From: an uncultured virus (IMG/VR IMGVR_UViG_3300005823_000001)
Lineage: Duplodnaviria; Heunggongvirae; Uroviricota; Caudoviricetes
Direction: 5' to 3' (one strand)
Virus record (IMG/VR): IMGVR_UViG_3300005823_000001
DNA: 20,000 bases
The notes under the pieces are model-generated. The model was not told the DNA's origin. It ran no database searches and saw only the letters and a program-made list of their open reading frames with translations. A program made the translations under genes and the position numbers. This document shows, one piece after another, positions 1,009 through 17,300 of the stretch (position 1 is the first letter of the stretch; each line of letters begins with the position of its first letter).

Positions 1009-1078
1009 TCCATACCTCCTGGTGGAGCCTACCTACGTTATTCAGTTGTAACGGCGGTATTCGATATACACCTCCTGT

Positions 1079-1127: not shown

Positions 1128-2047
1128 AGGCTAAAATGGCATCTTTTTTCAAGAACGTCCTTGACCATGTACGGCGGACACTCCTGTATATCTTTGAATC
1201 CTAACGGCAATTCTACTACGCTGGTGTAGGCCTCAAACCGCCGATAGCACATTTCCTCTAGCCGGAGGCCCGCGCTATCAGCATCGAAACACAGTATAAT
1301 CTCGCTTGGGCCTAGGCCCTGCACCCAAGCCGTCTGCCATTCACTCATATCTGAGCCTAAGATGGCTAGGGCTGGCCCCCAATGCTCCCATACCCAAATG
1401 CAGTCAAGCGCACCCTCTACTAACACCACGGCCTCAGGATTGCGCTCTATTCTGTCCATCCCGAATAAGTGCATGGCCCGCTGGAATCCCTTAGTATATA
1501 GATACTTGTGTGGGCTGCTAGGGCCAAACCTCTTGATAACAGCTACCCGCCGCCGGTCATCATCGTAAACTGGTATGACTATAGCCTTGTCATTAGCATC
1601 ATAACCTATACCCCAGCGTTTAATCATCGCCGGTGTATACCCGCGCTCCAGAAACCAACGAGGCACCACGTCAAAACGGAAGTCAGTGTCCTGGGGTAGG
1701 TTTTGCGGCAGAGGAGGCCTCTGGGCCACCAGGGAGCCGCTGGTGGGCAATTTGCGTAAAGTTTCCAGCAGGATCGCGGGCTCAACCGGCACGGCCTCGC
1801 TGAACATATCCACCTCAGCCGCTAGACGAGATTTTCCTAGCTTAGTCGCTAGTGTAAGCAGGTTCCCTCGCCCGCAACCGGAAAAGCATATCCATAGGCC
1901 CGTCTTTAGGTTAATACCAAAGCTAGGGTTGCTGTCCTCATGGAATGGACAGTGTGTATACATCTGGCCCTCACCGGTTATCTGGCCCACTATACCCCAG
2001 GAGCGCAATACCCGCGCTACGTCTACCTCCATACCCTCAAAGTTCAT
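1088..2047 (-). CDS. dnaG: DnaG-type DNA primase (CHC2 zinc finger + TOPRIM)
   Basis: CPFHEDSNPSF...WICFSGCG zinc finger; VLVEGALDCI and LCFDADSAG TOPRIM motifs; GFKDIQE. ATGA overlap with the helicase stop. Confidence 0.93.
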   Translation of the reverse strand: MNFEGMEVDVARVLRSWGIVGQITGEGQMYTHCPFHEDSNPSFGINLKTGLWICFSGCGRGNLLTLATKLGKSRLAAEVDMFSEAVPVEPAILLETLRKLPTSGSLVAQRPPLPQNLPQDTDFRFDVVPRWFLERGYTPAMIKRWGIGYDANDKAIVIPVYDDDRRRVAVIKRFGPSSPHKYLYTKGFQRAMHLFGMDRIERNPEAVVLVEGALDCIWVWEHWGPALAILGSDMSEWQTAWVQGLGPSEIILCFDADSAGLRLEEMCYRRFEAYTSVVELPLGFKDIQECPPYMVKDVLEKRCHFSLKLAARARQLRHN

Positions 2048-3273: not shown

Positions 3274-3722
3274 AACTCATCACACATATCTGCAAGGGTG
3301 GCTCGCGCTCCGGTTAGGTTAGCAGGATGGCCCCAGCTATAGGCTGCATCTATCTCATCATATCTAATAATAGTATCTCTAAGCTCTCTGTCTTTGGTTA
3401 CATACAGGAGGTAATAGGCCTTAGCTAGGAGCTTATCATGGAATACCTCGTCTTGTATATCCTCAGAGAGCCAACCGGCTACGCTCCTGATAGACGGGTC
3501 AGCCCAGCTATGGACATGTTGTATAATAGCGTAGCCGATTTGGTAGGCATCAAACCTAGATAATAACGACGAGAGCAGAGCCGTTTCTATTGCTCTGCTC
3601 TCGCCCTGGTACGATTTGCGGTATATGTTTTTGTACCACCAGGCCCACAGTTGCCACAGCAGAGTAGGAGTAGTTAGGTTGAGTAGCTTGCTGCGGCTAC
3701 CCTGTAGACTACTTGGTGCCAT
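3261..3722 (-). CDS. Hypothetical helical protein (possible helicase loader or replication accessory)
   Basis: 153-aa ORF with a purine-rich upstream sequence (GGGAAGGTAGGA), overlapping the helicase start. Function is inferred from position only. Confidence 0.65.
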   Translation of the reverse strand: MAPSSLQGSRSKLLNLTTPTLLWQLWAWWYKNIYRKSYQGESRAIETALLSSLLSRFDAYQIGYAIIQHVHSWADPSIRSVAGWLSEDIQDEVFHDKLLAKAYYLLYVTKDRELRDTIIRYDEIDAAYSWGHPANLTGARATLADMCDELCQI

Positions 3723-3754
3723 TCCTACCTTCCCATGTCCTATCAGAATATCGT

Positions 3755-4885
3755 CTACTCGCTAGCGGCCTTCTTAGCTCGCCGCTTCCGCTTGGGCTTA
3801 GGGGCTTCCTCTACCGGCTCCGGCTCCTCCACTACCGTAGCCTCAGCGTCTATGACCGGCTCCTGGTCGCCGTCTTCCTCCACAATGGCTACCTGGTGGC
3901 AAGTAGGGCAAGAAGTAAGGTGGCCCAGGAAGTGACCAGCTAGCCGCTGCATACGGTAGACCTTGAAAGCCCATCCAAAGTCATCACGGCCCATAGAGGT
4001 GTGGCTTGCCACGTAGGTCATGTGCTGTAGCAAGTCGTATACGGTCTGAGGTGGCTCCTCTGTGACGAGCTTCATAATGGCCCGCCGTTGCGGTACTTGG
4101 TGCTGAGCTAGGAGCCGGTCAAAATTGTCTAGGACTCCCTCTTCCAATGGCGTCTCAGCACTCCGCTGTACGTCGGCTAGCAGATGGTCGGCACCACTCC
4201 ATACCTTACGCATCTGCCGCCTAGCCCAATGGTACGTGCCTCTGGCCCTGGCGTCATCATCATCGCCCTCGCCATCGCCAGAACGTCGCCACCTCCGGCC
4301 TCTGTGCTCGGCGCTTATCATGCCATTGGTACACCGGAGCCGGTAGGCCACAAGCTCGATGGTCAAGGCCTGAAAGCCAATAAGAGAGCCTGACACCTGG
4401 ATGCCTACCCGCGTGATGTCACCAACAGATACAGCCGTCTCTCGCGACCCTAGGCCCACGAAAGAGAAATGCTTAAGCGTCTTGGTATTGGCCAGCCAGT
4501 CTACCGGCTGTATGGCCCTATCCAAAGACTCGATAAGCTCCTCAGGTCGGTAGGGCTCCAGCGCCGTAGTGCTAGCCTCTACGACACGGCCCTCCGATGG
4601 CTCTACCAGGATGTTGAATGGCTGGCCCGCCTCAGCTAGGCAAGTCAGTTGGTGCCGGTAGTGAGGCAACACAAGCTCGTTAGGTAGCCCGTTGAAGTAA
4701 TCGCTAGGCACCGGCAGAGCGGCCCCTATAGCCTGGATGTTGCCTAGGTTGAGCGGCACCCTCGCCTGGTCAGCTAGCTTGATACGGCGGCCCCGCGTAT
4801 CGAATTCGATACTAGCAGGGTCTACGGTATGCAAGTTGCTCTGGCTAAGTGGTGCGAACACCTGCAATACGTCTTCCTTATTCAC
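3755..4885 (-). CDS. DUF932-like phage protein with C-terminal CxxC and acidic/basic tail
   Basis: YRLRCTNGMI matches the RxxCxNG signature of the DUF932 family. GTGA overlap with the SNF2 stop. Confidence 0.7.
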   Translation of the reverse strand: MNKEDVLQVFAPLSQSNLHTVDPASIEFDTRGRRIKLADQARVPLNLGNIQAIGAALPVPSDYFNGLPNELVLPHYRHQLTCLAEAGQPFNILVEPSEGRVVEASTTALEPYRPEELIESLDRAIQPVDWLANTKTLKHFSFVGLGSRETAVSVGDITRVGIQVSGSLIGFQALTIELVAYRLRCTNGMISAEHRGRRWRRSGDGEGDDDDARARGTYHWARRQMRKVWSGADHLLADVQRSAETPLEEGVLDNFDRLLAQHQVPQRRAIMKLVTEEPPQTVYDLLQHMTYVASHTSMGRDDFGWAFKVYRMQRLAGHFLGHLTSCPTCHQVAIVEEDGDQEPVIDAEATVVEEPEPVEEAPKPKRKRRAKKAASE

Positions 4886-6516
4886 TTATACCCCCTTGCT
4901 AAGGCGATCATGTCGCCTATGCTAAGCTTACGCTGCCTTACCTCGTCTACTCCTGCCAAGAAATCACTAGCTAGCCGTAACTTCTTGTACAGAATAGTCC
5001 AGATATACTCGTCTATAGTGTCTCCTCCCTTCAGATTGATTACGTTAACTGTCTTATCTTGGCCAATACGATGTAGCCGGTCTTCCCTTTGGGCTAGCTT
5101 GGCTGGATTCCAAGGGTAATCATAGTGTATCACATAATCAGCCATCGTGAGATTAATACCATAGGCACCCACCTCAGTCATGACCAGATAAGGACATGGG
5201 CTGCTCTCAAAGCTATCTAGTATATCAGACCGTGTTTCCATCTTTGTCTTACCTGTTACTATAAGGCAATCTAACCTCTCCTGAATAGCCCTGGCTACCT
5301 CGGCGTACTGTGTGAATATGACTACCCGATGGCCACGGCCTATCTCCTCAAGTATATTCTGTAGCTCATTCAACTTACTCGTACCGGCCCCATCTACCAA
5401 TAGTGGTGGATAGTCCACTAGTTGCTTTAGCCGCGTCAGCTTAGCTAGGATATTAGGCATCGTCTCACGGTCTATGGTGTGCACCCAAGATACGAAATCC
5501 CTTACGGCCCTGTTGTACTCCTGGCGCTCCCTGTAGCTAAGCTCCACTATGTAATCCTGTACTATCTTGGCCGGTAGCTGGGGCTCAACGTCGGCCTTGA
5601 GCCGTCGTAGGAAATACGGCGCTACCTTTATCTGCACCTCTTCTAGGCCCCTGTAGCCGGTCGTCTTGCCCCATAAATCTTTAATACAATGCTGTTCTAC
5701 GAATAGCCATCCTGGGCCTAGGAGTGTTGGCTGTACGAATTCCATGATACTATGTAGCTCTTCCAAGGTATTCTCTATTGGCTGGCCAGACATGGCAATA
5801 GCGTACTTGCACTGTAAGCGCTTAAGCCGTTTGGTGGTCTGAGCCCTATAGTTCTTTACCCTGGTGGCCTCGTCAGCCACTATACAACCCCACTTGTAGG
5901 GCATGATATCTGCATCATGTAAAAGAAGCTCGTAATTAGCTATCTTAATCTTGGGCTCGGCCTTGGCCCAAGACTCCCGCCGGTCAGCCTTGCTGCCGGT
6001 GATGATTTCACAGCCCATACGGGCTGTATGCTTGTGTATCTCCCTCTCCCAATTCACCTTTACAGAGGCCGGACACAGGACTAAGGTACTACTCGGCTCC
6101 CATGCCATTATAGCAGCGATGGCTTGAATGGTTTTGCCTAGGCCCATCTCATCTGCTAGTAACACCCGCTTACCTTCTGTTACAAACTTAGCCCCTACTC
6201 GCTGGAATGGCCGGAGTGTACTTATCATGCCTGGTGTCTCGAATTCGGCATCTTCTAGGTCGCGAGTAGCCAACTGGCGCTCTGTTAGCCGCCTCTGGTG
6301 GCTCAGGAAGACGGTAAGAACCTCCTCGTAGGCCCAAGTGTAGCCCCGCTGTCTGAGGACACCCTCAAGACGCTTCAGTTGGCCTAGAGGGAATTCCCAA
6401 CGCTTATGGCGAGGATTCCACCGGCGGCCTGGTATAGTCCTGTAGGCCTCAACGAGGCCTAGGTCAAAAGGCGATACCGCCGTAAGGTTCTTACCGTCTA
6501 GGCTGAGTACTATCAC
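4882..6516 (-). CDS. SNF2-family helicase/ATPase with N-terminal HARP-like domain (SMARCAL1-like)
   Basis: LRPFQ, LLADEMGLGKT, LCPASVKVNW, VADEAT, SGQPIEN, RRLKADV, GINLT, WNP...QREDRLHRIGQ. N-terminal IPGRRWNPRHKRWEFP is HARP-like. Confidence 0.92.
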   Translation of the reverse strand: MIVLSLDGKNLTAVSPFDLGLVEAYRTIPGRRWNPRHKRWEFPLGQLKRLEGVLRQRGYTWAYEEVLTVFLSHQRRLTERQLATRDLEDAEFETPGMISTLRPFQRVGAKFVTEGKRVLLADEMGLGKTIQAIAAIMAWEPSSTLVLCPASVKVNWEREIHKHTARMGCEIITGSKADRRESWAKAEPKIKIANYELLLHDADIMPYKWGCIVADEATRVKNYRAQTTKRLKRLQCKYAIAMSGQPIENTLEELHSIMEFVQPTLLGPGWLFVEQHCIKDLWGKTTGYRGLEEVQIKVAPYFLRRLKADVEPQLPAKIVQDYIVELSYRERQEYNRAVRDFVSWVHTIDRETMPNILAKLTRLKQLVDYPPLLVDGAGTSKLNELQNILEEIGRGHRVVIFTQYAEVARAIQERLDCLIVTGKTKMETRSDILDSFESSPCPYLVMTEVGAYGINLTMADYVIHYDYPWNPAKLAQREDRLHRIGQDKTVNVINLKGGDTIDEYIWTILYKKLRLASDFLAGVDEVRQRKLSIGDMIALARGYK

Positions 6517-6818
6517 TATTTGGTAGCCGCCTTTTGTCTTCTATATGCTGCCCAACACGCCTGTAGCCACATTTGCTCAGGCCCGCTAATCATAATCCCT
6601 GGTAATCCTACTATCCCTCGCGCATCTATTTTCACTATGCGACAATTTTCCCATCCTGCATCGCCACCATAGACAAGTAGTAAACCATCCTGGCATATCG
6701 CTATCCACTGTTCGCCATGCTCATTCTCATAGTAGCTGGCGAATTCTGCTTTGTTTGCGTCTATCTCCGGTGGCGAACCACAACCCTCTACATGCTTATT
6801 ATCAGCCTTGAACAGCAC
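6516..6818 (-). CDS. Hypothetical protein
   Basis: GTG start with AGGAGGT RBS (6823-6829). TAGTG coupling to the SNF2 gene. Confidence 0.8.
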   Translation of the reverse strand: MLFKADNKHVEGCGSPPEIDANKAEFASYYENEHGEQWIAICQDGLLLVYGGDAGWENCRIVKIDARGIVGLPGIMISGPEQMWLQACWAAYRRQKAATK

Positions 6819-6827
6819 AGCTACCTC

Positions 6828-7703
6828 CTATAGCTCAAGCGTTTGCAGATGTGTACGGAATTGCGCTGTAGCTCTTTCCTCTTCGGCATCTACCTCCCAT
6901 AGGGCTTCATAGTCAAGTATCCCGTTAGCCCTTTCTATAAAGACTCTGGCTTGCTCGTCTCGTAGCGCTTCCCATTGGAATGTACCAGGCCGCTCAGGGT
7001 TTTCAGGTATGTCGTACTCTACCTCATGGCCTGGATTGAGACCTATGCGCTCAAAGTCTATATCATCCCTGGCCCTGGCTACTAGTGCATCGCTACAGTT
7101 GTATTCGCCTTTAATCAGGCCCAGCGTCCATACATAGATGTCCCGCCAAGCAGAATAGGGTATCTCCATACCCTTAGGGTCATAGTCGCCGTAGTAGAAG
7201 ATTTTGATAGGCTTCTGATGGAGGATATACCGACGGGCTAGGCGCTCAGCCGCTTTCCACTTCTCCGGTATAGAAATGTCGCCGTGAAAAGCAAGTAGGC
7301 TGATATTGCCATCCGCGTAATGGTCGAATTGGGCAGACATAGCAGAGGCCTCAAACCAACACTCCGTGTATACCGGTTGCTTTTGCCATCGGTCTATAGC
7401 ACAGTGGCTCCGCTCCTGTAGGGCTCGCAGCCATTCAGCAGGATTGGTATAGCCGCCACCGCGTACTACAGCAGCACGGCTATCATCGGCTAGGGTAGCC
7501 GGATGCCAACCGTTATAGAATTCCTTACGGGCTTTGGATAGAAGGCCAAGCAAGTGCTTGTATCCGGCCTTCTCGCTGTAGAGCCCTTCCTGTAACAGCC
7601 GGTAGAATACCCACCTAGCTGTTACCTGATAGGGCACCGAATCGACATAGCCTTTGGCCATATCTATAATGACCTTGTTCCTAGCAGCAGGTGTATAGGT
7701 CAC
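6828..7703 (-). CDS. Winged-helix + TOPRIM (Topo VI-A/JetD-like) protein
   Basis: QVTARWVFYRL, DRWQKQPVYTECWFE, YYGDYDPKGMEI, FERIGLN and WEAL follow the W..QP..VEVW.EK / D.DPSG..I / RIAL / ELDAL pattern of this phage family. Confidence 0.75.
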   Translation of the reverse strand: MTYTPAARNKVIIDMAKGYVDSVPYQVTARWVFYRLLQEGLYSEKAGYKHLLGLLSKARKEFYNGWHPATLADDSRAAVVRGGGYTNPAEWLRALQERSHCAIDRWQKQPVYTECWFEASAMSAQFDHYADGNISLLAFHGDISIPEKWKAAERLARRYILHQKPIKIFYYGDYDPKGMEIPYSAWRDIYVWTLGLIKGEYNCSDALVARARDDIDFERIGLNPGHEVEYDIPENPERPGTFQWEALRDEQARVFIERANGILDYEALWEVDAEEERATAQFRTHLQTLEL

Positions 7704-7911
7704 TGTGCGTTCCTCCTAGCATCTCTACAGCGGCCCTCATTAGCCGCCTACGAGACTTAAAGCCTACGCTCCTGGGGTTATCTGTCTTAGTTACAGGCCT
7801 ACCATCTAGCCAACCGTGATGATAGGCCCTATGCCCAGGATGCGGGCTACTACGCAGCATAATCAACGTATGCCCTTTGAGCGGCCCGTATGGTATCTTG
7901 CTGTTTGCCAT
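7681..7911 (-). CDS. Small basic hypothetical protein
   Basis: ATG immediately after the upstream TAG. Fills the gap in a tightly packed operon. Confidence 0.65.
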   Translation of the reverse strand: MANSKIPYGPLKGHTLIMLRSSPHPGHRAYHHGWLDGRPVTKTDNPRSVGFKSRRRLMRAAVEMLGGTHSDLYTCC

Positions 7912-7912
7912 C

Positions 7913-8206
7913 CTAGAACCTTCTGGCTATGTGAATGGCCCCTAGCAGGTAATTCCATACCTCACGGATAGTCATGTTGATGGCCACTACCTGCATGTCA
8001 TCCGGTATCGGTAGTGCGTGTTGGAATACGTGCGATATAGCCTCTGTAGGCTGCTGGTTAATACGCCGCCATATGGAATAACGTATTGCGCCGTTCTCCT
8101 TTTTACGCCATATAGCAAAGTAGTTGTAGCCGATCTGGTCGTATAGCTCGTGGCAAGCATCGCCCAAGCTCTTGTCGGTTACCCTCTGCCGGTGCGGAAT
8201 CGTCAT
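7913..8206 (-). CDS. Hypothetical protein
   Basis: ATG 2 nt after the upstream stop, with AGGAGG upstream. Confidence 0.75.
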   Translation of the reverse strand: MTIPHRQRVTDKSLGDACHELYDQIGYNYFAIWRKKENGAIRYSIWRRINQQPTEAISHVFQHALPIPDDMQVVAINMTIREVWNYLLGAIHIARRF

Positions 8207-8208
8207 AG

Positions 8209-8610
8209 CTACTTGGCCTCCTGGTGGCTCTCCCTGACATGCGCCATAAGGTCATCAAGGTCATCGTATAGCTCTTCACACGCAGGACAGGCATACGGCG
8301 CTACTGCCATTAGCTCTAGGTCGCAATCGTCATTACACTTCTGACCGTCCGGCTCCTCACCTCGCAGATAGAAGGTGTCACACGCGGTACACTTGTAGCC
8401 CTCTATATGACGGATGAGGTAGAGAGTCTCGCCTATAGCGAGTACGAAGCCATCACCCTCTGTAATTGTGATGGACTTAAGAGCACGGCCTATCTTTTCG
8501 GCTACCCCATAGGCATCAATGTAAGCTAGGCCATTGAGGGGAGTATCTTCTAGCTCACTAGCTGCTACCCTAAGCGCCTTGCTTAGCTTGACGGCGGTAT
8601 TCGGGTGCAT
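8209..8610 (-). CDS. Zinc-finger protein (CxxC...CxxxC plus C2H2)
   Basis: The likely start is ATG 8610 (GGAGGT at 8615-8620) rather than 8637. C-terminal YACPACEELYDDLDDLMAHVRESH is a C2H2 finger; also CTAC and CNDDC. Confidence 0.75.
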   Translation of the reverse strand: MHPNTAVKLSKALRVAASELEDTPLNGLAYIDAYGVAEKIGRALKSITITEGDGFVLAIGETLYLIRHIEGYKCTACDTFYLRGEEPDGQKCNDDCDLELMAVAPYACPACEELYDDLDDLMAHVRESHQEAK

Positions 8611-8786
8611 CCGTACCTCCAACTCTTCATACCACATACCGTGCAGATAACCTTCTCACGGTTATGCTCAGGAAGGACACCTGCTACCTTTTCGCCGGTC
8701 AGCTTCCAGGTATGCTTCATACCATCCTTAGCACAGGAGAAGTCATCAGCCGTTGCCTGCCTAGCAAACTCAATACGGCTATTCAT
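8583..8786 (-). CDS. Small putative zinc-ribbon protein
   Basis: ATG 8786 is coupled to the upstream stop (TAATG). MNSRIEF...SCAKDGMKHTW...ICTVCG. Confidence 0.6.
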   Translation of the reverse strand: MNSRIEFARQATADDFSCAKDGMKHTWKLTGEKVAGVLPEHNREKVICTVCGMKSWRYGCTRIPPSS

Positions 8787-9274
8787 TACGCGCCTGCCTG
8801 CTCTAGCTGGTCTACCAAGTCCCACCTAGCCCAAACGAGCATAGGCCGATTCGTGTACCCTTGTAGCTCTGTCCACCGCATCTGTGACTCGGACGCTGTA
8901 CGGACTAGAGCCGGTACACCATCGTCATCGGCCCGCCATGAGTAGTACTTAGTAGGCTCTCCTGGCTTCTGGTAGTAAGAGTCCATTGGCTTCCTAGGGT
9001 TACCAGCAGGGAAGGTTGCCTGTATGATGTGCCCTGCGGTATTCCATGCTATCTGGTCGGCCTTGTACGATGGCTGGTCATCGCACCCTACAACCGCATG
9101 TAGCTTGTAAACGTAGGTCTTTCGCCTACTTGTGCGCTCCGGCTGTGTGCCACCATCACGTAGGCAACCATGGTTCTTGCCATTACAGCTACACCGGCAG
9201 ATATCCTCTCTGGCATGCCAGCAAGCGTCCCCACAAGTATGTGCGTACATCAGCGCTTCTGTAATAGGATTCAC
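8786..9274 (-). CDS. Cys-rich phage protein (CxxxCxxAxxxxCxCxCxGxNHG), first gene of the early operon
   Basis: GTG start with AGGAGGT RBS (9278-9284). TCGDACWHAREDICRCSCNGKNHG. Directly downstream of the leftward sigma-70 promoter. Confidence 0.8.
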   Translation of the reverse strand: MNPITEALMYAHTCGDACWHAREDICRCSCNGKNHGCLRDGGTQPERTSRRKTYVYKLHAVVGCDDQPSYKADQIAWNTAGHIIQATFPAGNPRKPMDSYYQKPGEPTKYYSWRADDDGVPALVRTASESQMRWTELQGYTNRPMLVWARWDLVDQLEQAGA

Positions 9275-9311
9275 GTTACCTCCTAGCTGCTATATCCTAC
9301 TCGCTACAGAT

Positions 9312-9340
9312 ATTATCCTCCACTTTACCCCACAAGTCAA
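9312..9340 (-). promoter_or_regulatory. Leftward sigma70/sigmaA-type promoter
   Basis: TTGACT (9340-9335)-17 nt-GATAAT (9317-9312), with A-rich upstream sequence. Confidence 0.85.
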
Positions 9341-9389
9341 GTTTTTCCTCTGTACGAGTGGATTTTTCTTCCAAATTTCTTTTGGCTGT

Positions 9390-9830
9390 ATCCTCTATCT
9401 CATGCTTGAGGGTACAATGGCCCCCTAGGAAAGAGGGTCACTGTACACCAGCTTGAGGTATACAATCCGGTGCTTTCAACCGGACGGCCTTATCTCCATA
9501 TCTCAGCTGAGGAATTGTCTCGTTTCCGATGGAGTGCTGCCCAGGTCTGCCATTACCAGCTATTCAGCCGTGGCCTCAACAGGACGGCTTCTACCCGTAG
9601 GCGACTAGATAGTGTCTGGGGTGTCCAGGTCAGTTACTCACGTAGCCCCTGGCTCCCTGGCCTAAGGGATACCGAATCCTACGGTCTACCGGTAAACCGG
9701 CTCATTATGTCAGCTAGCATCGGCCAAGCTAGCTTGATAGGGAGAGGCGGCCCCGCCGCTAACCGCCTCTCCCCTAACCAGGAGGTAACGGAGGGTATAT
9801 GGGGGTGCGGCCACTTCATCCATGCCCTCC
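9390..9830 (-). ncRNA. Putative structured non-coding RNA or long structured leader (family unrecognised)
   Basis: About 10 adjacent stem-loops fill a region lacking a credible long gene. The first hairpin begins 7 nt downstream of the CATAAT of motif copy B. The strand is inferred from the promoter; G-U pair polarity is mixed. Confidence 0.55.
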
Positions 9831-9873
9831 ATTCTAATTATGACAGGTTTTGCAGCCGGTCGCCGCCAATTTT
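9825..9873 (-). promoter_or_regulatory. Bipartite promoter-like motif, copy B (AAAATTGGCGGCGA-N17-CATAATTAGAATGGAGGG)
   Basis: Near-identical to copy A in both blocks. Also an extended -10 (TGtCATAAT, 9845-9837). Lies back-to-back with the rightward promoter. Confidence 0.75.
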
Positions 9874-9883
9874 GGAGAAAGAT

Positions 9884-9912
9884 TTGACTTTTCTTGCGAG
9901 GTGAGGCATAAT
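9884..9912 (+). promoter_or_regulatory. Rightward sigma70/sigmaA-type promoter 1
   Basis: TTGACT (9884-9889)-17 nt-CATAAT (9907-9912), followed by GTGAGG and ATG 9932. Confidence 0.85.
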
Positions 9913-9931
9913 ATATGGTGAGGGTAGTTAT

Positions 9932-10210
9932 ATGGTGCTACAAATGACTAGGGAGCGTAAGCGGAAAAGGGGTACTCCTAAGGGTACACGGCTATCTCGT
10001 GCTCATCGTGATGCTATAAGTCGCGGTATGAAACGTAATAAGCAATTTATGGAGGCAATACAAGGCCCGCGTAATGACGATTGGCGAGCTAAGATAGCTG
10101 CATCCTCACAAGTGAATAAGGATGAAAACCCTAAGGAATGGGAGCGCTTATACAAGCGTCACCTGGCCCGCCTCCGGCTCCTACGGCTTGCTGAGGAGCA
10201 GGCTAACTAA
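9932..10210 (+). CDS. Small basic protein with NUMOD3-like motifs
   Basis: KGTRLSRAHRDAISRGMK and PRNDDWRAKIAAS resemble NUMOD3 (G...S.E.R.KIS..MK). Has its own promoter and RBS. Confidence 0.7.
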   Translation: MVLQMTRERKRKRGTPKGTRLSRAHRDAISRGMKRNKQFMEAIQGPRNDDWRAKIAASSQVNKDENPKEWERLYKRHLARLRLLRLAEEQAN

Positions 10211-10246
10211 ATACGATAGTCTATCGCGTTTCTCCTTTCTGGTGTT

Positions 10247-10285
10247 AAGTGGCCTAGTTGGTCGAGCTAGGCCACTTGACTTTTC
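10247..10285 (+). terminator. 11-bp perfect hairpin, possible intrinsic terminator or operator overlapping the next -35
   Basis: AAGTGGCCTAG (10247-10257) / CTAGGCCACTT (10267-10277), followed by GACTTTT. Confidence 0.5.
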
Positions 10286-10304
10286 CGGTGAAGTCCATCA
10301 TAAT
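10276..10304 (+). promoter_or_regulatory. Rightward sigma70/sigmaA-type promoter 2
   Basis: TTGACT (10276-10281)-17 nt-CATAAT (10299-10304), followed by a GGAGGTG RBS. Confidence 0.85.
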
Positions 10305-10326
10305 ATAAATCGGAGGTGAACACTAT

Positions 10327-10518
10327 ATGAGAATGATGTGGAATAGTGGTTTTGAAACCGGCCCCAGCCCAGGCCCCACTCGTATCAAGGTAGCTAAAGG
10401 CAAAGTGCCTATACTCCAAGCTACTGTGCTAACGGATGATGATATATGGGACACCATTTGGTCATCCGGCCCGCGTAATATCTGGATAGTGCATAACCCA
10501 CATCCTAAGTGGGGATAG
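10327..10518 (+). CDS. Small hypothetical protein
   Basis: GGAGGTG RBS (10312-10318), ATG 10327, directly downstream of promoter 2. Confidence 0.7.
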   Translation: MRMMWNSGFETGPSPGPTRIKVAKGKVPILQATVLTDDDIWDTIWSSGPRNIWIVHNPHPKWG

Positions 10519-10526
10519 GAGATAGC

Positions 10527-10994
10527 ATGAAAAAGAAGGAAGCTATAGAGGCCCTCCGGCAAGCTGAGCGCCGGTTGAGAGCCATCAAAGATGAGCAGGA
10601 TAGCCTTAGCTATGAGCATGATGGGATGTGGGAGACTATCTACCGGTGCTTTGACGCCATAGAGGGTGCCGGTCAACCGGCCCGTTTCCTTACTGAAGAG
10701 GGAATGGTATTAGCCAGAGAGCTAGCCCGTCATCCTCAGGATGGCCGCATAGACCTTAAGGCCCTGGCCGCAAAGCTTACACCTGAACAATGGAAGGCTG
10801 TAACCCGTACTGAGCGGGTATTCGATGAAGGTCGCCTCAATAAGGCGGTCGAAAAGGGTATAGTGCCTCTCGCGCTAGTAGAGGGCTCTGTCCTCAGTAA
10901 GGCACCGGTGCCACGTCGCATACATAAGACGTGTACCAAAGATGAGGCTGAGCAGCTACAGTCTCAAGGCCGCCTGCTGCGAATCGTAGCTTAG
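10527..10994 (+). CDS. Hypothetical phage protein (N-terminal coiled coil)
   Basis: The likely start is ATG 10527 with AGGAGA (10517-10522). Protein-like composition. Confidence 0.75.
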   Translation: MKKKEAIEALRQAERRLRAIKDEQDSLSYEHDGMWETIYRCFDAIEGAGQPARFLTEEGMVLARELARHPQDGRIDLKALAAKLTPEQWKAVTRTERVFDEGRLNKAVEKGIVPLALVEGSVLSKAPVPRRIHKTCTKDEAEQLQSQGRLLRIVA

Positions 10995-11008
10995 TAAGGG
11001 GAGCAACC

Positions 11009-11653
11009 TTGCGTGTATGGATAGGTATCCTATCTTTAAGTATTGTCATACTAGCAGCTATAGTAATAGCAGGAGAGTATAGTGGAGAACCTAGAGCCTC
11101 GCTGGATGGGCCTGATAATAGTGGTATCGTGTTCCGTCGGGATTATCCTGATAGGGGCAGCTATAGAACTGCTGATATCCTGGTATGGGAAGCGAAAATG
11201 GCAACGCCTATACCAACGATTAAGGCGGCCTCGCTAACACCTACAGTATTCGATTTCCACACCCAAACCCCTGTTATAGCATCCTCTTATGGCCCATATT
11301 ATGATGAGGTAGTATGGATTACCCACTACCTCTGCATAGGTGACAGCACCGGTATATATTGCCCTACCTGGATGTGTGATACATGCAACCTTACTAGGTG
11401 GGGAGCAGAAGTAGGGCCATATGTAGCAGCCTGCGATCCGGCGAGGAAGCTATGGCAATTCGAGCTATTCGGTGATGTATTCACCTGCTGGGATACCGGC
11501 TCAATGGTATGGGGAGCGCATGTGGATATTTGGTGCTACGATTTTGACCACTTTGGAGTGCCAGGTACGCCTGAGTACGAGCTACCTTGCCCGCCGGTTA
11601 CTAATGCTGCCTATGAGAGGGTTATTTGGAAGATACCTACTGAGGCTCAGTAA
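11009..11653 (+). CDS. Membrane-anchored/secreted 3D-domain (double-psi barrel, lytic transglycosylase-like) protein
   Basis: N-terminal hydrophobic helix. ITHY...T.WG...VAACDP...WDTGSMVWGAHVDIW contains the three Asp of 3D domains. TTG start with AAGGGGAG RBS. Confidence 0.75.
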   Translation: MRVWIGILSLSIVILAAIVIAGEYSGEPRASLDGPDNSGIVFRRDYPDRGSYRTADILVWEAKMATPIPTIKAASLTPTVFDFHTQTPVIASSYGPYYDEVVWITHYLCIGDSTGIYCPTWMCDTCNLTRWGAEVGPYVAACDPARKLWQFELFGDVFTCWDTGSMVWGAHVDIWCYDFDHFGVPGTPEYELPCPPVTNAAYERVIWKIPTEAQ

Positions 11654-12350
11654 CAGTATACCCCATCGCCTTTAGTCGCCATATATAGTGCTTAGCGGCC
11701 TTGAGAAACGGAGGCCCTTGTATACTAGGGTCATCCTCGTAGTGCTTGAGCCATCCCTCATTATCTGCTCGTATCTCGTCCTTTTCTTGCTCTAGCTCAA
11801 TTCCCCGCTCTAATTTCTTTATACGCTCTTCCCAATTCGACATAGGCTCTTCTCCTATATTGTCTAGCTCTGGCACCCATTCTTGCCACCTATTACCAGG
11901 ACAGGCCGTACCATGTCCAGGTAGAGCCCAATCCCTATGGCCCTTGACCGGCACTCGCCGCTCTAGCTCCCAGCGCCACTTCTGCACTAAGGCCCTAGCT
12001 GTCTCCATCGCCGCCGGTGTAGGCAAATCGTTCTGGAGATTTCCTACAAAGGCGAAAGATAGTATCTCGTGATTACGAGAGGCGACACCGGCCCGCTGCT
12101 GAATGATAGACCCACATATGTAGCCTCTGCCGGACATGAATACTAGGGCTGTATAACCAATGCCTCCCCACAACCTAGGAGCCGTATTATGAAAGAGGTT
12201 GATGAATTTGATATGATTTAGCTCATCCTCTACTGTCGGGTTAACCCGCATATAGAAGCTGACGGTATGATGGGCTCCGATGCCTATAATACCATCGGGA
12301 TTCCTAGTATCGTAACCTGCGTCAACGATGGTGCTTACATCTGCGAACAT
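11637..12350 (-). CDS. Endolysin, N-acetylmuramoyl-L-alanine amidase (Amidase_2/PGRP-like)
   Basis: GIGAHHT, WGGIGY, FVGN, VKGHRDW and TACPG Zn-amidase motifs. Located in the lysis cassette. Confidence 0.9.
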   Translation of the reverse strand: MFADVSTIVDAGYDTRNPDGIIGIGAHHTVSFYMRVNPTVEDELNHIKFINLFHNTAPRLWGGIGYTALVFMSGRGYICGSIIQQRAGVASRNHEILSFAFVGNLQNDLPTPAAMETARALVQKWRWELERRVPVKGHRDWALPGHGTACPGNRWQEWVPELDNIGEEPMSNWEERIKKLERGIELEQEKDEIRADNEGWLKHYEDDPSIQGPPFLKAAKHYIWRLKAMGYTVTEPQ

Positions 12351-12356
12351 CGTGGA

Positions 12357-12860
12357 TCACCCCAAAATCGGTGCTTTCTTATCTAGGCTAACTGGCTCCA
12401 TATATCCTTTTCCACAATGGGGGCAAATCAAATCCGATGTACGTTGTCCATATCTAATTGGGTTAATCCATAGCTCCAGATTTTCTAGCCGGTTATCAGC
12501 CTTGTTGCCATTCTTGTGATGTACCGATTCACCCTTACGTAGAGGCCGTCCTAATATATGAGTCATTACTACACGGTGTTCCTCAATAGCTACGCCGTCA
12601 AAGAACCTAATGTACATATAGCCTCTACCGTCTCGGAAACGGTCGTGTCGTGGCAATTTGCGTACACGGTTGTAAGCGTTTTGCCTCCATCGTCGCCTCA
12701 GGCACTTTCGGCAGTAGACACCCATTAGGGTTTCTACTTCCATACCGCAATCTAAGCAAGTGGCTATTTTATATCCACGCTCTGCTCGTAATCGTTGTAC
12801 ACAATCCGAGCAGTATATATAACACGATGTTGCTATGCCGCATTCTCGGCACTCTTTCAT
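12357..12860 (-). CDS. HNH (HNH_3-type) homing endonuclease with CxxC zinc ribbons
   Basis: [38 protein letters not shown]; four N-terminal CxxC and one C-terminal CPHC; GAGGAGG RBS. Confidence 0.9.
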
Positions 12861-12952
12861 CTACGCCCTCCTCAGAAGTGGGATTTAGCGGCCCTGAGCG
12901 CCAAATCTGGGCCTTCCGGCGATGAAATCAGTGTCAACCCCTAGCCCCATTT

Positions 12953-13198
12953 CTAGCCGGTCGTCCGCTTTATAGCCCAAAAAGCCAAGGCTCCACCGGC
13001 AACGGCCCTAACCAGACCACCGCCTATATTGACTAGCCATTCCTTCCAGTCGGTAATCACTGTAGGGTCAAATTGTACCAGGATTTCCAGTACGAAGATG
13101 CACCCCGCCACCAGACCAGCCATCAGCAATTCAGCTACAAGCCGGAAATTGTACTGGCTGATATCCTGTACACCCTCGTCTAGCTTTTTAGGTAGCAT
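12953..13198 (-). CDS. Putative holin (2 hydrophobic segments, basic C-terminus)
   Basis: LVAELLMAGLVAGCIFVLEILV and WLVNIGGGLVRAVAGGALAFWAI; upstream of the endolysin; GGGAGG RBS. Confidence 0.65.
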   Translation of the reverse strand: MLPKKLDEGVQDISQYNFRLVAELLMAGLVAGCIFVLEILVQFDPTVITDWKEWLVNIGGGLVRAVAGGALAFWAIKRTTG

Positions 13199-13217
13199 AA
13201 CATCCCTCCCTCTACAA

Positions 13218-13277
13218 GCCTGAGCGGGTATACACCATAGGGGGAGTATGGTGCGCCTTTCGCGTACCCGCTCAGGC
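13218..13277 (-). promoter_or_regulatory. Three-way-junction RNA element upstream of the holin
   Basis: A perfect 13-bp closing stem GCCTGAGCGGGTA/TACCCGCTCAGGC encloses a 7-bp hairpin (CACCATA/TATGGTG) and a 3-bp hairpin. Confidence 0.65.
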
Positions 13278-13289
13278 CGTCACCCCCTG

Positions 13290-13496
13290 CTAATATAAGC
13301 GGCCTGCTAAAATAGCTACAGAAGCCAGAACAACTGGTATTGCCCATCTAAGGAGGCTAATCATACCATTCATCTTGTCTAGCCGTGTTTCTATAGAATC
13401 GAGGCGACCTTTGACATGTACTATGTCTTCATCTAAGCGCTTATTTAGACCCTCGCACATCTCCTTAAGTATAGCGGTAGCTGATTTTCCTGGCAT
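13290..13496 (-). CDS. Small coiled-coil protein with C-terminal TM helix (XhlA-like lysis accessory)
   Basis: VKGRLDSIETRLDKMNG heptads, then LLRWAIPVVLASVAILAG. AAGGAG RBS. Confidence 0.7.
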   Translation of the reverse strand: MPGKSATAILKEMCEGLNKRLDEDIVHVKGRLDSIETRLDKMNGMISLLRWAIPVVLASVAILAGRLY

Positions 13497-13508
13497 GTAT
13501 AGTACTCC

Positions 13509-14297
13509 TTACTTGGCGGTAAAGAATTTATATCCTATAGCAGTTTGTATCTCATCTCCAGGCCCCCAATTAGGGCTCTCCGGTATCCAGATGGAGCCGC
13601 CGGTATGCTCTAATATACAGCTTGGGAAGTTATACAAGCGTCCGGTCATTACACACATAGGGCCATGAGTGGAGCCGGTGCAGGGTATAAGGGCTAAATT
13701 GTGCATTAGCTCATGCATTACGGCTCCATAGGCCCTATTAGCTGTCCAGAAGCCATCTACGCCATCTCCTGTCTCGTGGTTAGTGATGGCCTCTATACCC
13801 ATCGTCATAAAGAAGGATATACCAGGCACACGCATAAAGCCAAGTCTACCTGGTACTTGGCCCTCCGTCTGGCCGAACCAATCACCTCCTACAGTGCCAT
13901 ATAGGTTAAGCTCGTTGGTAGGATCATCGAGGAAGATATACCAGGCGTTATGGCCATCGAAATTACAGTACCCGCTATCCTTTAGACGATTCACTATAGA
14001 TAGCAGGCTGTAGCCCTTAGATGGGCCTGGTATTTGAGCAGCATGTAGCTTCCAGTTAGGAATCTGTATACTAAACTTGTTCAGCCATCCGTTTATCCTA
14101 CCAGGAATCTTAGCCAAGCCGCTTTTGTATTCGGTCTTGGGCTCACGGTCAAAAGCTACCACTATGAGGTTAACGGTATAAGCGTTTTCGCTAGATGTTG
14201 TTGGCCAAGCCTGTCTTAGCTGGCCTATAGTGGTTAGCTTAGCCGCCTCAAATGTAGCTGCTATTTGCGCTTCTAGCTTCTCCAAGTCAGTAGGCAT
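13509..14297 (-). CDS. Putative zincin metallopeptidase
   Basis: YGAVMHELMHNLAL (HExxH) followed by a CVM Met-turn-like motif. Confidence 0.65.
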   Translation of the reverse strand: MPTDLEKLEAQIAATFEAAKLTTIGQLRQAWPTTSSENAYTVNLIVVAFDREPKTEYKSGLAKIPGRINGWLNKFSIQIPNWKLHAAQIPGPSKGYSLLSIVNRLKDSGYCNFDGHNAWYIFLDDPTNELNLYGTVGGDWFGQTEGQVPGRLGFMRVPGISFFMTMGIEAITNHETGDGVDGFWTANRAYGAVMHELMHNLALIPCTGSTHGPMCVMTGRLYNFPSCILEHTGGSIWIPESPNWGPGDEIQTAIGYKFFTAK

Positions 14298-14300
14298 GCA

Positions 14301-17300
14301 TCACCTCGTTACCGGCTGTAGCAACTTAAGCTCGCCTATAGCCCCTAAGTTCTCCTCGCCCTCATCCATGCGCTTTACATCGTACTTATACGGCTCAGGC
14401 CGCCTATTCCAAGCCAATAGAGGGTTAGTATCAGAATCGCTAATAGCGACATGCGCTACGGTAGCGCTCTGTTTAGTTACACCTCCAATAGCGCCACTGT
14501 CTTTCTCTATAAGAACATCATCAGCTATGGCTGTTTCACGTACAGTAGCTTTAAGCAGCCAGGTGCTTATATCCGTACCGTCGGGGAAGGTTACACGTAT
14601 AATAACGTCACATCCTTGATAGAATTCAATATCTGTCTCTACTGCCACATCTACACCTCCTACTATGTCTATATACTTTTCGATAGTGGCTTGTATGTCT
14701 ATGATTAGACCAGGTAGTGTAGCCCGTACCGTTAGACTGCCTACGCCAGCTAGAGCGGCAGAGCCCTTATAAGCGACGGCTGCTGCTGCCGACGCCTCAC
14801 CAATACCGGCCAAGGTAGCACTACCCTTAAGGATGCTGATAGCAATAGCGCTAACGTCGCCAACACCGGCCAATGTAGCTGAGCTACGACGTACCGCTCT
14901 ACCATCTGCTGTAAGGGCTCCGACACCGGCCAAGGTAGCAGAGCCTACCTTTTCCACCTTGCCTATAACAGATACATTGCCTACACCAGCTAGGGTGGCT
15001 CGGCCATACACCTCGCCGCCTACAGTACCAAGGGCTGATAGGTTTCCTATACCGGCTAGTGTAGCAGCCCCTACTAGGCCCATTATAGCATGAGCTTGCA
15101 AATCTCCCGCACCGGCCAATGTAGCTGAGGCTAAGCGTACACAGGCACCGGCCCCTGACAAGGCCCCTACACCCGCTAAGGTAGCGCTTCCTAGGGTTAT
15201 AACTCCACCTGATACACTAACTGTACCTACACCGGCTAGGGTAGCGGCCCCTGGACGTACAAGACCACTACTAGCGGTACACCCACCTACACCGGCTAAC
15301 GTAGCTATGCCAACATGCTCAACGGTAGCTGAACAGGTAAGGCCACCTGCGCCAGCTAAGGTGGCTTGGCCATATACCTCAGCACCTACAGTGCCAAGGG
15401 CTGATAGGTCGCCTATACCGGCCAGCGTACCTGAGCCCGCAAGGGTAGCAGATCCGCTAGCGCTCAAATCACCTATACCGACTAAGGTAGCAGAGCCGCT
15501 AGTTATCCGGCTACCCGTAGCAGATAAGGTTCCTACACCTGCTAGAGTGACTGTACCTGCCCTTGTTACGTTAGCAGCACATGTAAGCGCTCCGGCCCCA
15601 GCTAGGGTAGCTGAGCCCGTTACTATCGCTTGAATAACGGTAGCGGAAGCAGATAGGTTACCTATACCAACGAGTGTAGCTGAGCCTATCCGTTCTACGC
15701 TGGCACTACAAGTAAGGCCACCTATTCCTGCTAGGGTAGCTGAGCCTGTTACTATCGCCTGAGTGACAGTAGCTAAAGCAGTTAGACTGCCTATACCTGC
15801 TAGCGTAGCCGAACCTGCCCTTATTACGCTGGCATTACAAGCAAATGCTCCAACCCCAGCAAGTGTAGCTGAGCCTGTTCGTTCCACACCGGCGCTAGCT
15901 GATAGGTTGCCTACACCCGCTATAGTAGCGGCCCCTGGCCTGATAACACCACCACTAACAGATAAGGTTCCTATGCCAGCTAAGACGCCTGCACCCGTAG
16001 CCTCTATAGTAGCGCTACATGCGCAATCACCCACACCTGCTAACGTAGCTGTACCATATACCTCAGCACCTACAGTACCTAAGCAAGATAGGTCACCTAT
16101 ACCGGCTAGAGTGGCTGTGCCAGTACGTTCGATAGTGGCACTACAGGTAAGAGAACCTACACCAGCTAAGGTAGCAGAAGTGCCACGTATAACAGTGGCG
16201 TTAGCTGAGCAATCGCCTATACCTGCTAGTGTGGCTGAACCTGAACGTATAACGCCGCCACTAGCAGATACATTACCAATACCGGCCAGTGTAGCAGCCC
16301 CTGGCTTAGTTAAGCCACCACTACACGTAAGGGCTCCAACTCCAGATAGCGTAGCTGAGCCTGTCGCTTCCTTAGCAGCGCTACAAGCAAGAGAGCCTAC
16401 ACCAGCTAGGGTAGCTGAGCCATATACTTCAGCACCAACAGTAGCTAAGGCAGATAAGTTTCCTACACCAGCCAGTGTAGCTGAACCTATAGCCTCAATG
16501 CTAGCGCTACAAGTGAGATTGCCTACACCGGCGAGCGTAGCTGAGCCTGGACGTATCAGGCCAGCAGCAATAGATAAGCCACCAGCACCAGCTAGGGTAG
16601 CTGCTCCTGGCCTTACTAAGCCGCCACTACAAGTAAGATTAGCTACACCGGCTAAGGTGGCTGTACCATATACTATTGCCTGGATGACAGTAGCACTACA
16701 AGATAGAGTGCCAACGCCTGCCAGCGTAGCTGAGCCGGTACGTTCTACGCCGCCTAAGGCAGATAAAGTACCTATACCAGCTAACGTAGCTGCACCTGGC
16801 CTAGTAATGCTTGCGCTACAGGTAAGGCTGCCTATGCCAGCCAAAGTAGCTGTGCCGTATACTATTGCTTGAATGACACTAGCTGAACAAGTAAGGCCAC
16901 CAACACCCGCTAATGTAGCAGAGCCCCCTAATATTCTTGTAGCTGCGATAGATAGGTCGCCAACACCGGCTAGTGTAGCTGCGCCTACCGCTTCTTTTGC
17001 AGCTACACAAGTAAGGTTACCGGCTCCTGCTAATGCGGCTGAACCTATACGCTCTACACCGGCGCTACAACTCAAATCACCCGCACCAGCTAGGGTGGCG
17101 CTACCTGGCCTTACTAGGCCGCCACTACAAGTAAGGCCGCCTATTCCTGCTAATGTAGCTGAGCCGATACGCTCAATACCGGCGCTAACAGATAGGTCGC
17201 CTACTCCAGCTAGGGTAGCTGAGCCGGTGCGCTCAACGCTAGCACTACAAGTAAGGTTACCGGCTCCCGCTATAGTAGCTGAGCCACCTAGACGCCTAGT

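What the first reader, a model, noticed from the sequence alone, without database searches (positions are those of the whole stretch)
9390..9830. About 440-nt densely structured non-coding region, a candidate novel phage ncRNA
Seen stems: 9790-9830 (GGAGGG/CCCTCC-closed), 9740-9750/9763-9773 (11 bp perfect), 9712-9718/9728-9734, 9689-9700, 9654-9669, 9625-9652, 9566-9589, 9494-9534, 9466-9484 and 9412-9446 (15 positions, one mismatch on the minus strand). They are packed nearly end to end in an otherwise gene-dense genome. The first stem starts exactly at the predicted TSS of motif B. I see no tRNA, tmRNA, RNase P, SRP or intron core. There is no U-tract terminator on the minus strand, so it could instead be a roughly 550-nt leader of the early operon, or a structured replication origin. 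A second TGaCATAAT (9712-9704) could split it into two RNAs.
Basis: partly seen in the sequence, partly recalled or inferred. Interest (0 to 1): 0.75.

Follow-up and report, generated by a model that had tools for sequence, protein, structure and literature searches.

The report
Long structured phage early-gene control region
This is the 657-base non-coding gap between the two diverging early gene blocks of an uncultured marine-sediment phage; it folds somewhat better than chance and is most likely a promoter and leader region, not a proven new RNA gene.

Summary
The ten stems exist and the region is non-coding, but "dense structure" is only modestly above chance. Fold z is -2.75 (+) and -3.00 (-). 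4 of 60 control windows of the same phage reach that, and hairpin density ranks only 16-23%.

There is no Rfam hit, no tRNA and no homologous DNA anywhere searched. All public copies are identical, so covariation cannot be tested, and no RNA run was listed.

The early operon therefore already has a proximal promoter with a roughly 30-nt leader. Both TGNCATAAT extended -10 motifs of the window lie inside the gap, on the minus strand.

If they fire, the minus-strand RNA forms a 14-bp helix (9789-9776 with 9288-9275, two G-U pairs). This helix buries the ribosome-binding site of the first early gene, with pair probability about 1. The 593-nt leader folds at z -5.19. The helix alone is only about p 0.05.

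Best reading (about 0.35): tandem-promoter, long structured leader with promoter-dependent masking of the ribosome-binding site. Rivals: a processed or trans-acting RNA, a DNA-level element, or a neutral spacer. Interest is low to moderate.

The parts
9275..9931 (.). Whole non-coding gap between the divergent early gene blocks, 657 bp, by far the largest gap in the window
   Evidence: ORF list; flanking genes annotated
9390..9830 (-). The reported structured stretch; ten stems present; strand not proven, minus slightly favoured
9837..9845 (-). TGTCATAAT extended -10-like motif (distal candidate promoter P1); predicted start near 9830, at the foot of the first hairpin
   Evidence: position of start inferred from usual -10 to +1 spacing
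9790..9830 (-). Hairpin closed by GGAGGG/CCCUCC; would be a 5'-terminal stem-loop of a P1 transcript
9776..9789 (-). Anti-Shine-Dalgarno segment GUUACCUCCUGGUU, lying between two hairpins
   Evidence: (I1)
9739..9774 (-). Strongest hairpin: 11 perfect pairs on both strands, 14 pairs with G-U on the minus strand, about -30 kcal/mol; no U-tract after it
   Evidence: (I3)
9704..9712 (-). TGACATAAT extended -10-like motif (second candidate promoter P2)
9412..9446 (-). Strong hairpin (local structure 9398-9458, -27 to -30 kcal/mol)
9334..9383 (.). A+T-rich stretch just upstream of the proximal promoter (UP-element-like); one of 10 such stretches in the window
9312..9340 (-). Proximal consensus sigma-70 promoter P_L, TTGACT-17-GATAAT, for the early replication operon
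9279..9342 (-). Promoter plus 5'UTR plus SD module; a second copy (7 differences in 64) sits in other flanks in three runs
   Evidence: record 8, tables 7 and 8
9275..9288 (-). Translation-initiation region of the first early gene (AGCUAGGAGGUAAC, next to the GTG start at 9274-9272), partner of the anti-SD segment
8786..9274 (-). First early gene, 162-aa Cys-rich protein of a family with no Pfam hit here (67 relatives)
9884..9912 (+). Consensus sigma-70 promoter P_R1, TTGACT-17-CATAAT, for gene 9932-10210
10276..10304 (+). Third consensus promoter P_R2, TTGACT-17-CATAAT, preceded by a terminator-like hairpin
9470..9904 (+). 144-aa open frame (164 codons stop to stop) that gene callers have called; judged spurious

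Best explanation
The 657-bp gap is the untranslated control region of the phage's early genes. Host RNA polymerase starts leftward at the proximal consensus promoter P_L (9340-9312) and rightward at P_R1 (9884-9912).

The 440-nt stretch between them is most likely also transcribed leftward, from one or two extended -10 promoters (9845-9837 and 9712-9704). That would make it a long, structured 5' leader placed in tandem with P_L.

In transcripts from the distal promoter the RNA begins with a stem-loop (9830-9790). The next 14 nt (9789-9776) pair with the Shine-Dalgarno region of the first early gene (9288-9275). This closes a roughly 515-nt domain and hides the ribosome-binding site. Transcripts from P_L lack the anti-SD segment and leave the site open. 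Which promoter fires would then decide whether gene 1 is translated.

Shown: the stretch is non-coding, the promoter-consensus matches exist, the stems exist, and the helix is thermodynamically predicted. Inferred: that the extended -10 motifs fire, that the RNA exists, and that masking matters in vivo.
For: NON-CODING. The 144-aa frame has no relative among 5.8e9 clustered proteins (only itself among 27 candidates). Among 1.84e9 representatives it finds only itself plus a repetitive 48-residue match at E 4.6e-5. The adjacent gene has 67 relatives. Its sense-codon score of -0.114 is at or below that of 31 of 32 real-gene pieces and lies inside the off-frame distribution.

PROMOTERS. TTGACT-16/18-NATAAT occurs 3 times in 20 kb, all within 9312-10304, against 0.03 expected; 0 of 200 shuffles reach 3. 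The only two TGNCATAAT motifs of the window both lie in the gap on the minus strand. The P_L module 9279-9342 recurs elsewhere with other flanks, so it is a self-contained unit.

STRUCTURE. The 593-nt minus RNA 9832-9240 has MFE -233.4 and z -5.19, with 0 of 100 shuffles as good. Both MFE and centroid contain the 9789-9776/9288-9275 helix. The helix has 14 bp, and its 2 G-U pairs exist only on the minus strand. Its pair probabilities are 0.73-1.00.

SD ACCESSIBILITY. The unpaired probability of the SD is 0.00-0.03 in P1 transcripts, 0.32-0.33 in P2 transcripts and 0.59-0.65 in P_L transcripts.

NO STOP BEFORE THE OPERON. No minus-strand hairpin plus U-tract was found, so nothing predicted would stop such RNA before the operon.
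Against: The helix alone is weak statistically. Duplex energy is -27.6 against a shuffle mean of -23.0; 47 of 1000 shuffles and 8 of 150 other window segments do as well. Any strong SD finds a CCUCC partner easily, and the same segment also pairs with the TIR of gene 661-1008.

Two TGNCATAAT in 20 kb is not itself unusual: 37 of 200 shuffles have two or more. Both lack a -35 match in the scan.

The plus strand folds nearly as well: z -4.57 for 593 nt and -2.75 for 441 nt. Comparable z values occur in coding controls: 2 of 22 windows of 593 nt at <= -4.29 and 4 of 60 windows of 441 nt.

0 of 17 distant relatives of gene 1 show an upstream anti-SD signal, though their gene order differs. No transcription data and no sequence variation are available.
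Confidence: 0.35

Rival explanations
1. A discrete regulatory RNA. Transcription from the distal extended -10 promoter gives a roughly 95-135-nt RNA (9830 to about 9735-9698). It would have a 5' stem-loop, a single-stranded anti-SD seed and a strong 3' hairpin. Released by processing or by U-tract-independent termination, it would pair in trans with the ribosome-binding site of the first early gene (and perhaps other strong SDs) to shut off early translation, like P1 c4 or P4 CI.
For: The 103-nt fold shows two hairpins with the 14-nt seed mostly in the linker. Mean unpaired probability of the seed is 0.51 in the 96-nt form. Co-folding with the P_L mRNA 5' end forms the helix with a ddG of -13.4 kcal/mol. 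A second, colinear 10-of-12 complementarity (9706-9717 with 9283-9294) flanks the hairpin (I4). In P1, c4 is encoded in the same operon as its targets and has a downstream binding site (PMC8198154, passages read).
Against: No terminator-like site was found on the minus strand. The 103-nt RNA folds at only z -1.78, and 12 of 200 shuffles do as well. No Rfam family, C4 included if it is in release 15 (recalled), matches. Seed significance is about p 0.05. No RNA data.
Confidence: 0.17
2. A DNA-level element rather than an RNA. It could be a replication origin next to the replication genes (transcription-activated, using the A+T-rich stretch 9334-9383), or a set of binding sites for phage regulators between divergent promoters, with the hairpins acting as cruciforms or single-strand initiation signals.
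For: The gap borders the primase/DnaB/SSB/SNF2 operon. Stems score similarly on both strands, as DNA palindromes would. An A+T-rich 50-nt stretch lies at 9334-9383. Cumulative GC skew has a local minimum at 9400-9800.
Against: No tandem or iteron-like repeats. No word of 4-7 nt is enriched after correction; the best is CCCC/GGGG at 8 against 1.8, p 6e-4 over 128 tests. No DnaA-box-like site lies in the gap. The stretch is G+C-rich (56%). The A+T-rich stretch is 1 of 10 in the window. The skew turn coincides with the switch in gene direction.
Confidence: 0.15
3. A largely neutral spacer, for example the decayed remnant of lost early genes, whose hairpins are what 56% G+C sequence gives by chance.
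For: Hairpin count is ordinary. Coding controls reach the same z. There is no conservation beyond clonal copies, no Rfam hit and no repeated motifs. A 164-codon open frame with non-coding codon usage could be a relic.
Against: Phage genomes this dense rarely keep 440 bp of junk between strong promoters. The whole-leader z of -5.19 (0 of 100 shuffles) and the near-certain long-range helix are at the tail of the controls. Both extended -10 motifs of the window fall here.
Confidence: 0.23
4. It holds one or more unannotated small protein genes. Candidates are the minus-strand 46-aa frame 9819-9679 (GGAGGG five bases before its ATG), the 40-aa frame 9832-9710, and the plus-strand 144-aa frame 9470-9904.
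For: The layout -10 motif, GGAGGG, ATG at 9845-9817 resembles that of P_R1 and gene 9932 (by eye). A gene caller has called the 144-aa frame in public data.
Against: Sense-codon scores are -0.184 (46 aa), -0.058 (40 aa) and -0.114 (144 aa), against a real-gene mean of +0.115. There are no homologues for the 144-aa frame. Its composition is Arg/Ser-rich and Lys-poor. The frames run through the strongest hairpins.
Confidence: 0.07

Closest known systems
Tandem early promoters with a long processed leader, as in coliphage T7 (A1, A2, A3 upstream of gene 0.3; recalled from textbook knowledge, no paper read here)
   Same: Several host-polymerase promoters stacked in one direction ahead of the first early gene, giving leaders of hundreds of nucleotides that contain hairpins.
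   Different: Here only the proximal promoter has both hexamers and the upstream two are extended -10 motifs only. The region lies between divergent promoters. No RNase III site or processing is shown. There is no sequence relationship.
Phage P1/P7 c4 and P4 CI antisense RNAs
   Same: The regulatory RNA is encoded upstream in the same transcription unit as its target and pairs with a downstream site. The same-operon arrangement and downstream binding site come from PMC8198154 (passages read). That the site covers a ribosome-binding site is recalled.
   Different: No match to any Rfam model. One 14-bp contiguous pairing instead of two loop-presented segments. No evidence of processing. The phage shows no lysogeny genes in the window.
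cis-acting SD sequestration by an upstream anti-SD in 5' leaders (general bacterial mechanism; reviewed in PMC4611024, seen only in the search listing)
   Same: A CCUCC-containing segment pairs with the ribosome-binding site and lowers its accessibility.
   Different: The partners are about 490 nt apart and enclose a multi-hairpin domain. The switch proposed is promoter choice, not a ligand, temperature or protein.
Large structured phage-associated RNAs such as ROOL and GOLLD
   Same: Hundreds of nucleotides, G+C-rich relative to surroundings, found in phage genomes.
   Different: No match at gathering score or at E <= 10. No conserved relatives were found, so no family can be defined.

Membership tests
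Any Rfam 15 family (4227 models; ROOL, GOLLD, raiA, C4, RNase P, tmRNA, SRP, group I/II introns and phage pRNA are recalled to be among them) | Covariance-model score at or above the family's gathering score | tested here: not met
   0 matches in the whole window. In 9200-10000 the best of 5 sub-threshold hits is 17.4 bits against a gathering score of 37.7, at E 1.4.
tRNA / tmRNA | Cloverleaf or tmRNA detected by ARAGORN | tested here: not met
   0 genes in the window.
Sigma-70 promoter | -35 and -10 hexamers with 16-18 nt spacing | tested here: met
   10 of 12 matches at 9340-9312 (-), 9884-9912 (+) and 10276-10304 (+). The pattern occurs 3 times against 0.03 expected. Activity not tested.
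Extended -10 promoter | TGN immediately upstream of a TATAAT-like hexamer | tested here: inconclusive
   TGTCATAAT at 9845-9837 and TGACATAAT at 9712-9704. The count in the window is not above chance (37 of 200 shuffles). Their clustering in the gap is suggestive only.
Intrinsic terminator bounding an RNA gene | G+C-rich hairpin followed by a U-tract on the transcribed strand | tested here: not met
   The only terminator-like site in 9100-10400 is 10259-10274 on the plus strand.
Structured ncRNA in general | Fold energy clearly below shuffles and below the genome's own background | tested here: inconclusive
   z is -2.75/-3.00 for 441 nt and -5.19/-4.57 for 593 nt. Controls reach these values in 4 of 60 and 2 of 22 windows.
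Structured ncRNA in general | Compensatory base changes in relatives | not testable with these tools
   No related DNA was found. All public copies are identical.
c4/CI-type antisense RNA | Complementarity to a downstream site that covers the target's ribosome-binding site | tested here: met
   A 14-bp helix 9789-9776/9288-9275 covers the SD. Chance level is about 0.05.
c4/CI-type antisense RNA | Processing to a discrete small RNA | not testable with these tools
   No RNA run was listed.
Replication origin | Iterons or initiator boxes next to an A+T-rich unwinding element | tested here: not met
   No tandem or direct repeat family of note. No enriched words. No DnaA-like box in the gap. The A+T-rich stretch is present but not unique.
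Protein-coding gene (144-aa frame) | Homologues and gene-like codon usage | tested here: not met

The most novel reading that the evidence does not exclude
The gap encodes a roughly 540-nt minus-strand RNA domain with no known family. Its closing helix is an anti-SD clamp on the first early gene. It would act as a promoter-selected, or after processing a trans-acting, translational timer of phage early expression: a large structured relative in logic, not in sequence, of the c4/CI antisense systems, in a lytic-type phage.
Probability: 0.15. Interest if true: 0.55.

Novelty: new member of a known kind. Interest (0 to 1): 0.3.

Why it matters
If the long leader and its anti-SD clamp are real, this phage would set translation of its first early gene by promoter choice. 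That is a simple timing device that could be tested with reporters, in a phage lineage with no cultured relatives. If not, the finding is an ordinary promoter-rich intergenic region. Either way it shows that hairpin-dense stretches of 56% G+C fall within this genome's own background. The gene-called 144-aa frame also seen in public data is probably spurious.

Tried and rejected
RELATED DNA
- blastn of the gap against 50,697 phage records: no match.
- Exact 34-nt hairpin in IMG/VR: 0.
- Protein-anchored scans with the SNF2 helicase in IMG/VR, metagenomes and genomes gave only relatives of <=36% identity, mostly bacterial.
- Gene 1 and the topoisomerase-like gene in IMG/VR: none.
- A profile of gene-1 relatives gave 19 IMG/VR loci, the full-length matches <=41% identical. 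blastn of the gap against all 69 loci held gave a best E of 0.44.
- tblastn of gene 1 against phage records gave 2 distant hits.
- The one distant locus with a similar divergent gap (L054) has an unrelated sequence.

VARIATION. Four runs with lower word share were laid in the hope of finding variants. Their contigs were identical across the gap, with 0 other letters. The 90% clusters of three proteins differ only in how the first residue is written, plus one substitution in the 92-aa protein.

EXPRESSION. No RNA holder was listed.

WHOLE GENOME. None is held for this window.

EARLIER NOTES OF THE SCAN. Nothing was found.

OTHER IDEAS DROPPED
- Anti-SD signal in relatives: 0 of 17.
- Tandem duplication of a roughly 100-nt unit: rejected.
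- AGCT-motif enrichment: rejected, because 38.5% of windows have at least as many.
- Alternative reading frames and small ORFs: no support.
- Pfam at E <= 10 for the plus-strand early proteins and gene 1: nothing.
- The -41.5 kcal/mol duplex with the TIR of gene 661-1008 rests on large interior loops and was not pursued.

Full report
CONTEXT. The window is part of an uncultured tailed phage.
- The minus strand from 9274 down to 3 carries an early/replication block. It includes an SSB-like protein, a DnaG-type primase (1088-2047), a DnaB-like helicase (2044-3273), an SNF2 helicase (4882-6516) and a topoisomerase-like protein (6828-7703).
- The plus strand carries small genes with no hit in Pfam or PHROGs (9932-10210, 10509-10994, 11009-11653).
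- From 11637 the minus strand carries an amidase, an HNH endonuclease and an 1887-aa protein.
- The same DNA stands in 9 runs of 3 studies, from marine sediment and subsurface metagenomes. The longest contigs carrying its proteins are about 66.7 kb.
- The finding lies in the 657-bp gap 9275-9931 between the two diverging blocks.

CHECK OF THE OBSERVATION. The two TGNCATAAT motifs are where stated. There is no tRNA or tmRNA and no Rfam match at gathering score. At E <= 10 only five chance-level hits appear. No hairpin plus U-tract exists on the minus strand.

The claim of unusual density does not hold up.
- The stretch has 6 local structures of -12 kcal/mol or better per 441 nt. The window mean is 4.5, and 16-23% of windows have as many.
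- The summed energy ranks in the top 1.4-2.6%, but it is matched by G+C-rich coding stretches.
- Against dinucleotide shuffles the 441 nt give z -2.75 (+) and -3.00 (-).
- 4 of 60 non-overlapping control strand-windows from positions 1-14112 do as well (20-25 shuffles each; the last 5.9 kb were not scanned).

IS IT CODING? One plus-strand frame is open for 164 codons, or 144 from a GTG, and public gene calls include it. Several tests speak against it being a gene.
- It has no relative among 5.8 billion clustered proteins.
- A full HMMER pass over 1.84 billion representatives found only itself and a repetitive 48-residue match at E 4.6e-5.
- The neighbouring gene 8786-9274 has 67 relatives, the closest at 63% identity.
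- With stop codons taken out of the model, its codon score is -0.114. Only 1 of 32 real-gene pieces of equal length scores that low, while 21% of off-frame pieces score higher.
- Lys is 0.7%, and Arg plus Ser make up 24%.
- The short minus-strand frames score no better.

I therefore treat the gap as non-coding.

TTGACT-17-(G/C)ATAAT occurs three times in 20 kb, against 0.03 expected. The sites are 9340-9312 on the minus strand, and 9884-9912 and 10276-10304 on the plus strand. The early operon thus has a proximal consensus promoter, P_L. By my estimate from usual spacing it gives a leader of about 30 nt, with a start near 9305. The finding lies between two back-to-back consensus promoters.

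The 64-bp unit 9279-9342, which holds the promoter, the UTR and the SD, recurs with 7 differences in a different context in three runs. That marks it as a self-contained module which ends 2 bp beyond its -35 hexamer. The stretch just upstream (9334-9383) is A+T-rich, as UP elements are; that comparison is recalled.

THE LONG-RANGE HELIX. An 11-nt perfect inverted repeat joins 9780-9790 to 9274-9284, the ribosome-binding site of the first early gene. Several results bear on it.
- Folded as minus-strand RNA from the predicted distal start to just inside the gene (9832-9240, 593 nt), the MFE is -233.4 kcal/mol against -196.8 +/- 7.1 for shuffles. That is z -5.19, with 0 of 100 shuffles as good.
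- Both MFE and centroid contain a 14-bp helix, 9789-9776 with 9288-9275. Two of its pairs are G-U and so exist only on the minus strand.
- Its pair probabilities are 0.73-1.00.
- The unpaired probability of the SD is 0.00-0.03 in transcripts from about 9830, 0.32-0.33 from about 9697 and 0.59-0.65 from about 9305.
- The minus fold uses 21 G-U pairs of 180, and the plus fold 12 of 181.

CAVEATS, GIVEN EQUAL WEIGHT.
- The duplex alone is matched by 47 of 1000 shuffled upstream regions and by 8 of 150 other window segments. It contains the generic anti-SD core, so it also pairs with other strong SDs.
- The plus strand of the same 593 nt gives z -4.57.
- 2 of 22 control windows of 593 nt reach z <= -4.29, with 16 shuffles each.
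- No anti-SD signal is seen upstream of gene-1 homologues in 17 testable IMG/VR loci of 19, where the lowest count was 64 of 200 shuffles. Those loci are <=41% identical and differently arranged.

RIVALS.
- A discrete small RNA is structurally attractive: a 5' hairpin, the seed in a linker and a strong 3' hairpin, with a trans ddG of -13.4 kcal/mol. But it lacks a terminator and folds at only z -1.78.
- An origin or operator array finds no iterons, no tandem repeats, no enriched words and no DnaA-like boxes.
- A neutral spacer cannot be excluded, because every structural statistic lies within the tail of the genome's own background.

COMPARATIVE AND EXPRESSION DATA. None could be obtained.
- There is no similar DNA in phage records, IMG/VR, or the loci fetched.
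- The contigs of four further runs are identical over the gap.
- Cluster members differ only in how the first residue is written, plus one substitution in the 92-aa protein.

VERDICT. This is a real non-coding control region with strong divergent promoters and several strong hairpins. Structure is modestly above chance, and a novel ncRNA is not demonstrated. The most likely reading (about 0.35) is a tandem-promoter long leader whose anti-SD segment masks the first early gene's ribosome-binding site. It would be a new instance of a known kind of regulation, of low to moderate interest until transcription or covariation is shown.

PAPERS. For PMC8198154 I read three passages on c4. PMC4611024 was seen only in a search listing. 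Statements about T7, P4 CI, UP elements and 5' stem-loop stabilisation are recalled, not read here.

Noticed in passing
window 8786-9274 (-): The first early gene encodes a 162-aa Cys-rich protein with invariant C14, C26, C28, C30, N34, H35 and W134 (a CRCSCxGxNHG-type motif). It has 67 relatives in metagenomes, no hit in Pfam or PHROGs and no informative source name. In one distant locus (L054) it also sits directly behind a near-consensus sigma-70 promoter.
   Followed up: partly
window 9279-9342 (-): A second copy of this 64-bp promoter/UTR/SD module (7 differences) lies in a 980-nt contig with different flanks in runs X7, X8 and X9. Its depth is about 1.3 times that of the phage contigs in each run. 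It is probably another early promoter of the same or a sister phage, in front of a different reading frame.
   Followed up: partly
window 6175-6892 (+), 7498-8092 (-), 10144-10584 (+), 11908-12348 (-): Windows outside the gap fold as far below shuffles as the finding, with z from -3.5 to -5.2 on few shuffles. 7498-8092 (-) is the sense strand of early genes, and 10144-10584 (+) includes the terminator-like hairpin and P_R2.
   Followed up: no
window 15763-16872 (+): A 369-aa open frame runs antisense to the 1887-aa gene and has a mildly positive codon score (+0.117 bits per codon). It is probably a by-product of the codon bias of the long gene.
   Followed up: no
window 13290-13496 (-), 8583-8825 (-), 10327-10518 (+): Small frames of 68, 80 and 63 aa have gene-like codon scores (+0.216, +0.158, +0.108). 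They may be real small genes.
   Followed up: no
window 9932-10210 (+): The first rightward gene encodes a very basic 92-aa protein. By eye (recalled motif, no Pfam hit even at E <= 10) it carries one or two NUMOD3-like DNA-binding motifs, so it could be a regulator acting on this region.
   Followed up: partly
L054 4300-4390 (-): By eye, the equivalent divergent gap of a distant relative seems to hold a tRNA-like gene and repeated TGTGTCA/TGACAC words. Neither was tested with ARAGORN or a repeat tool.
   Followed up: no
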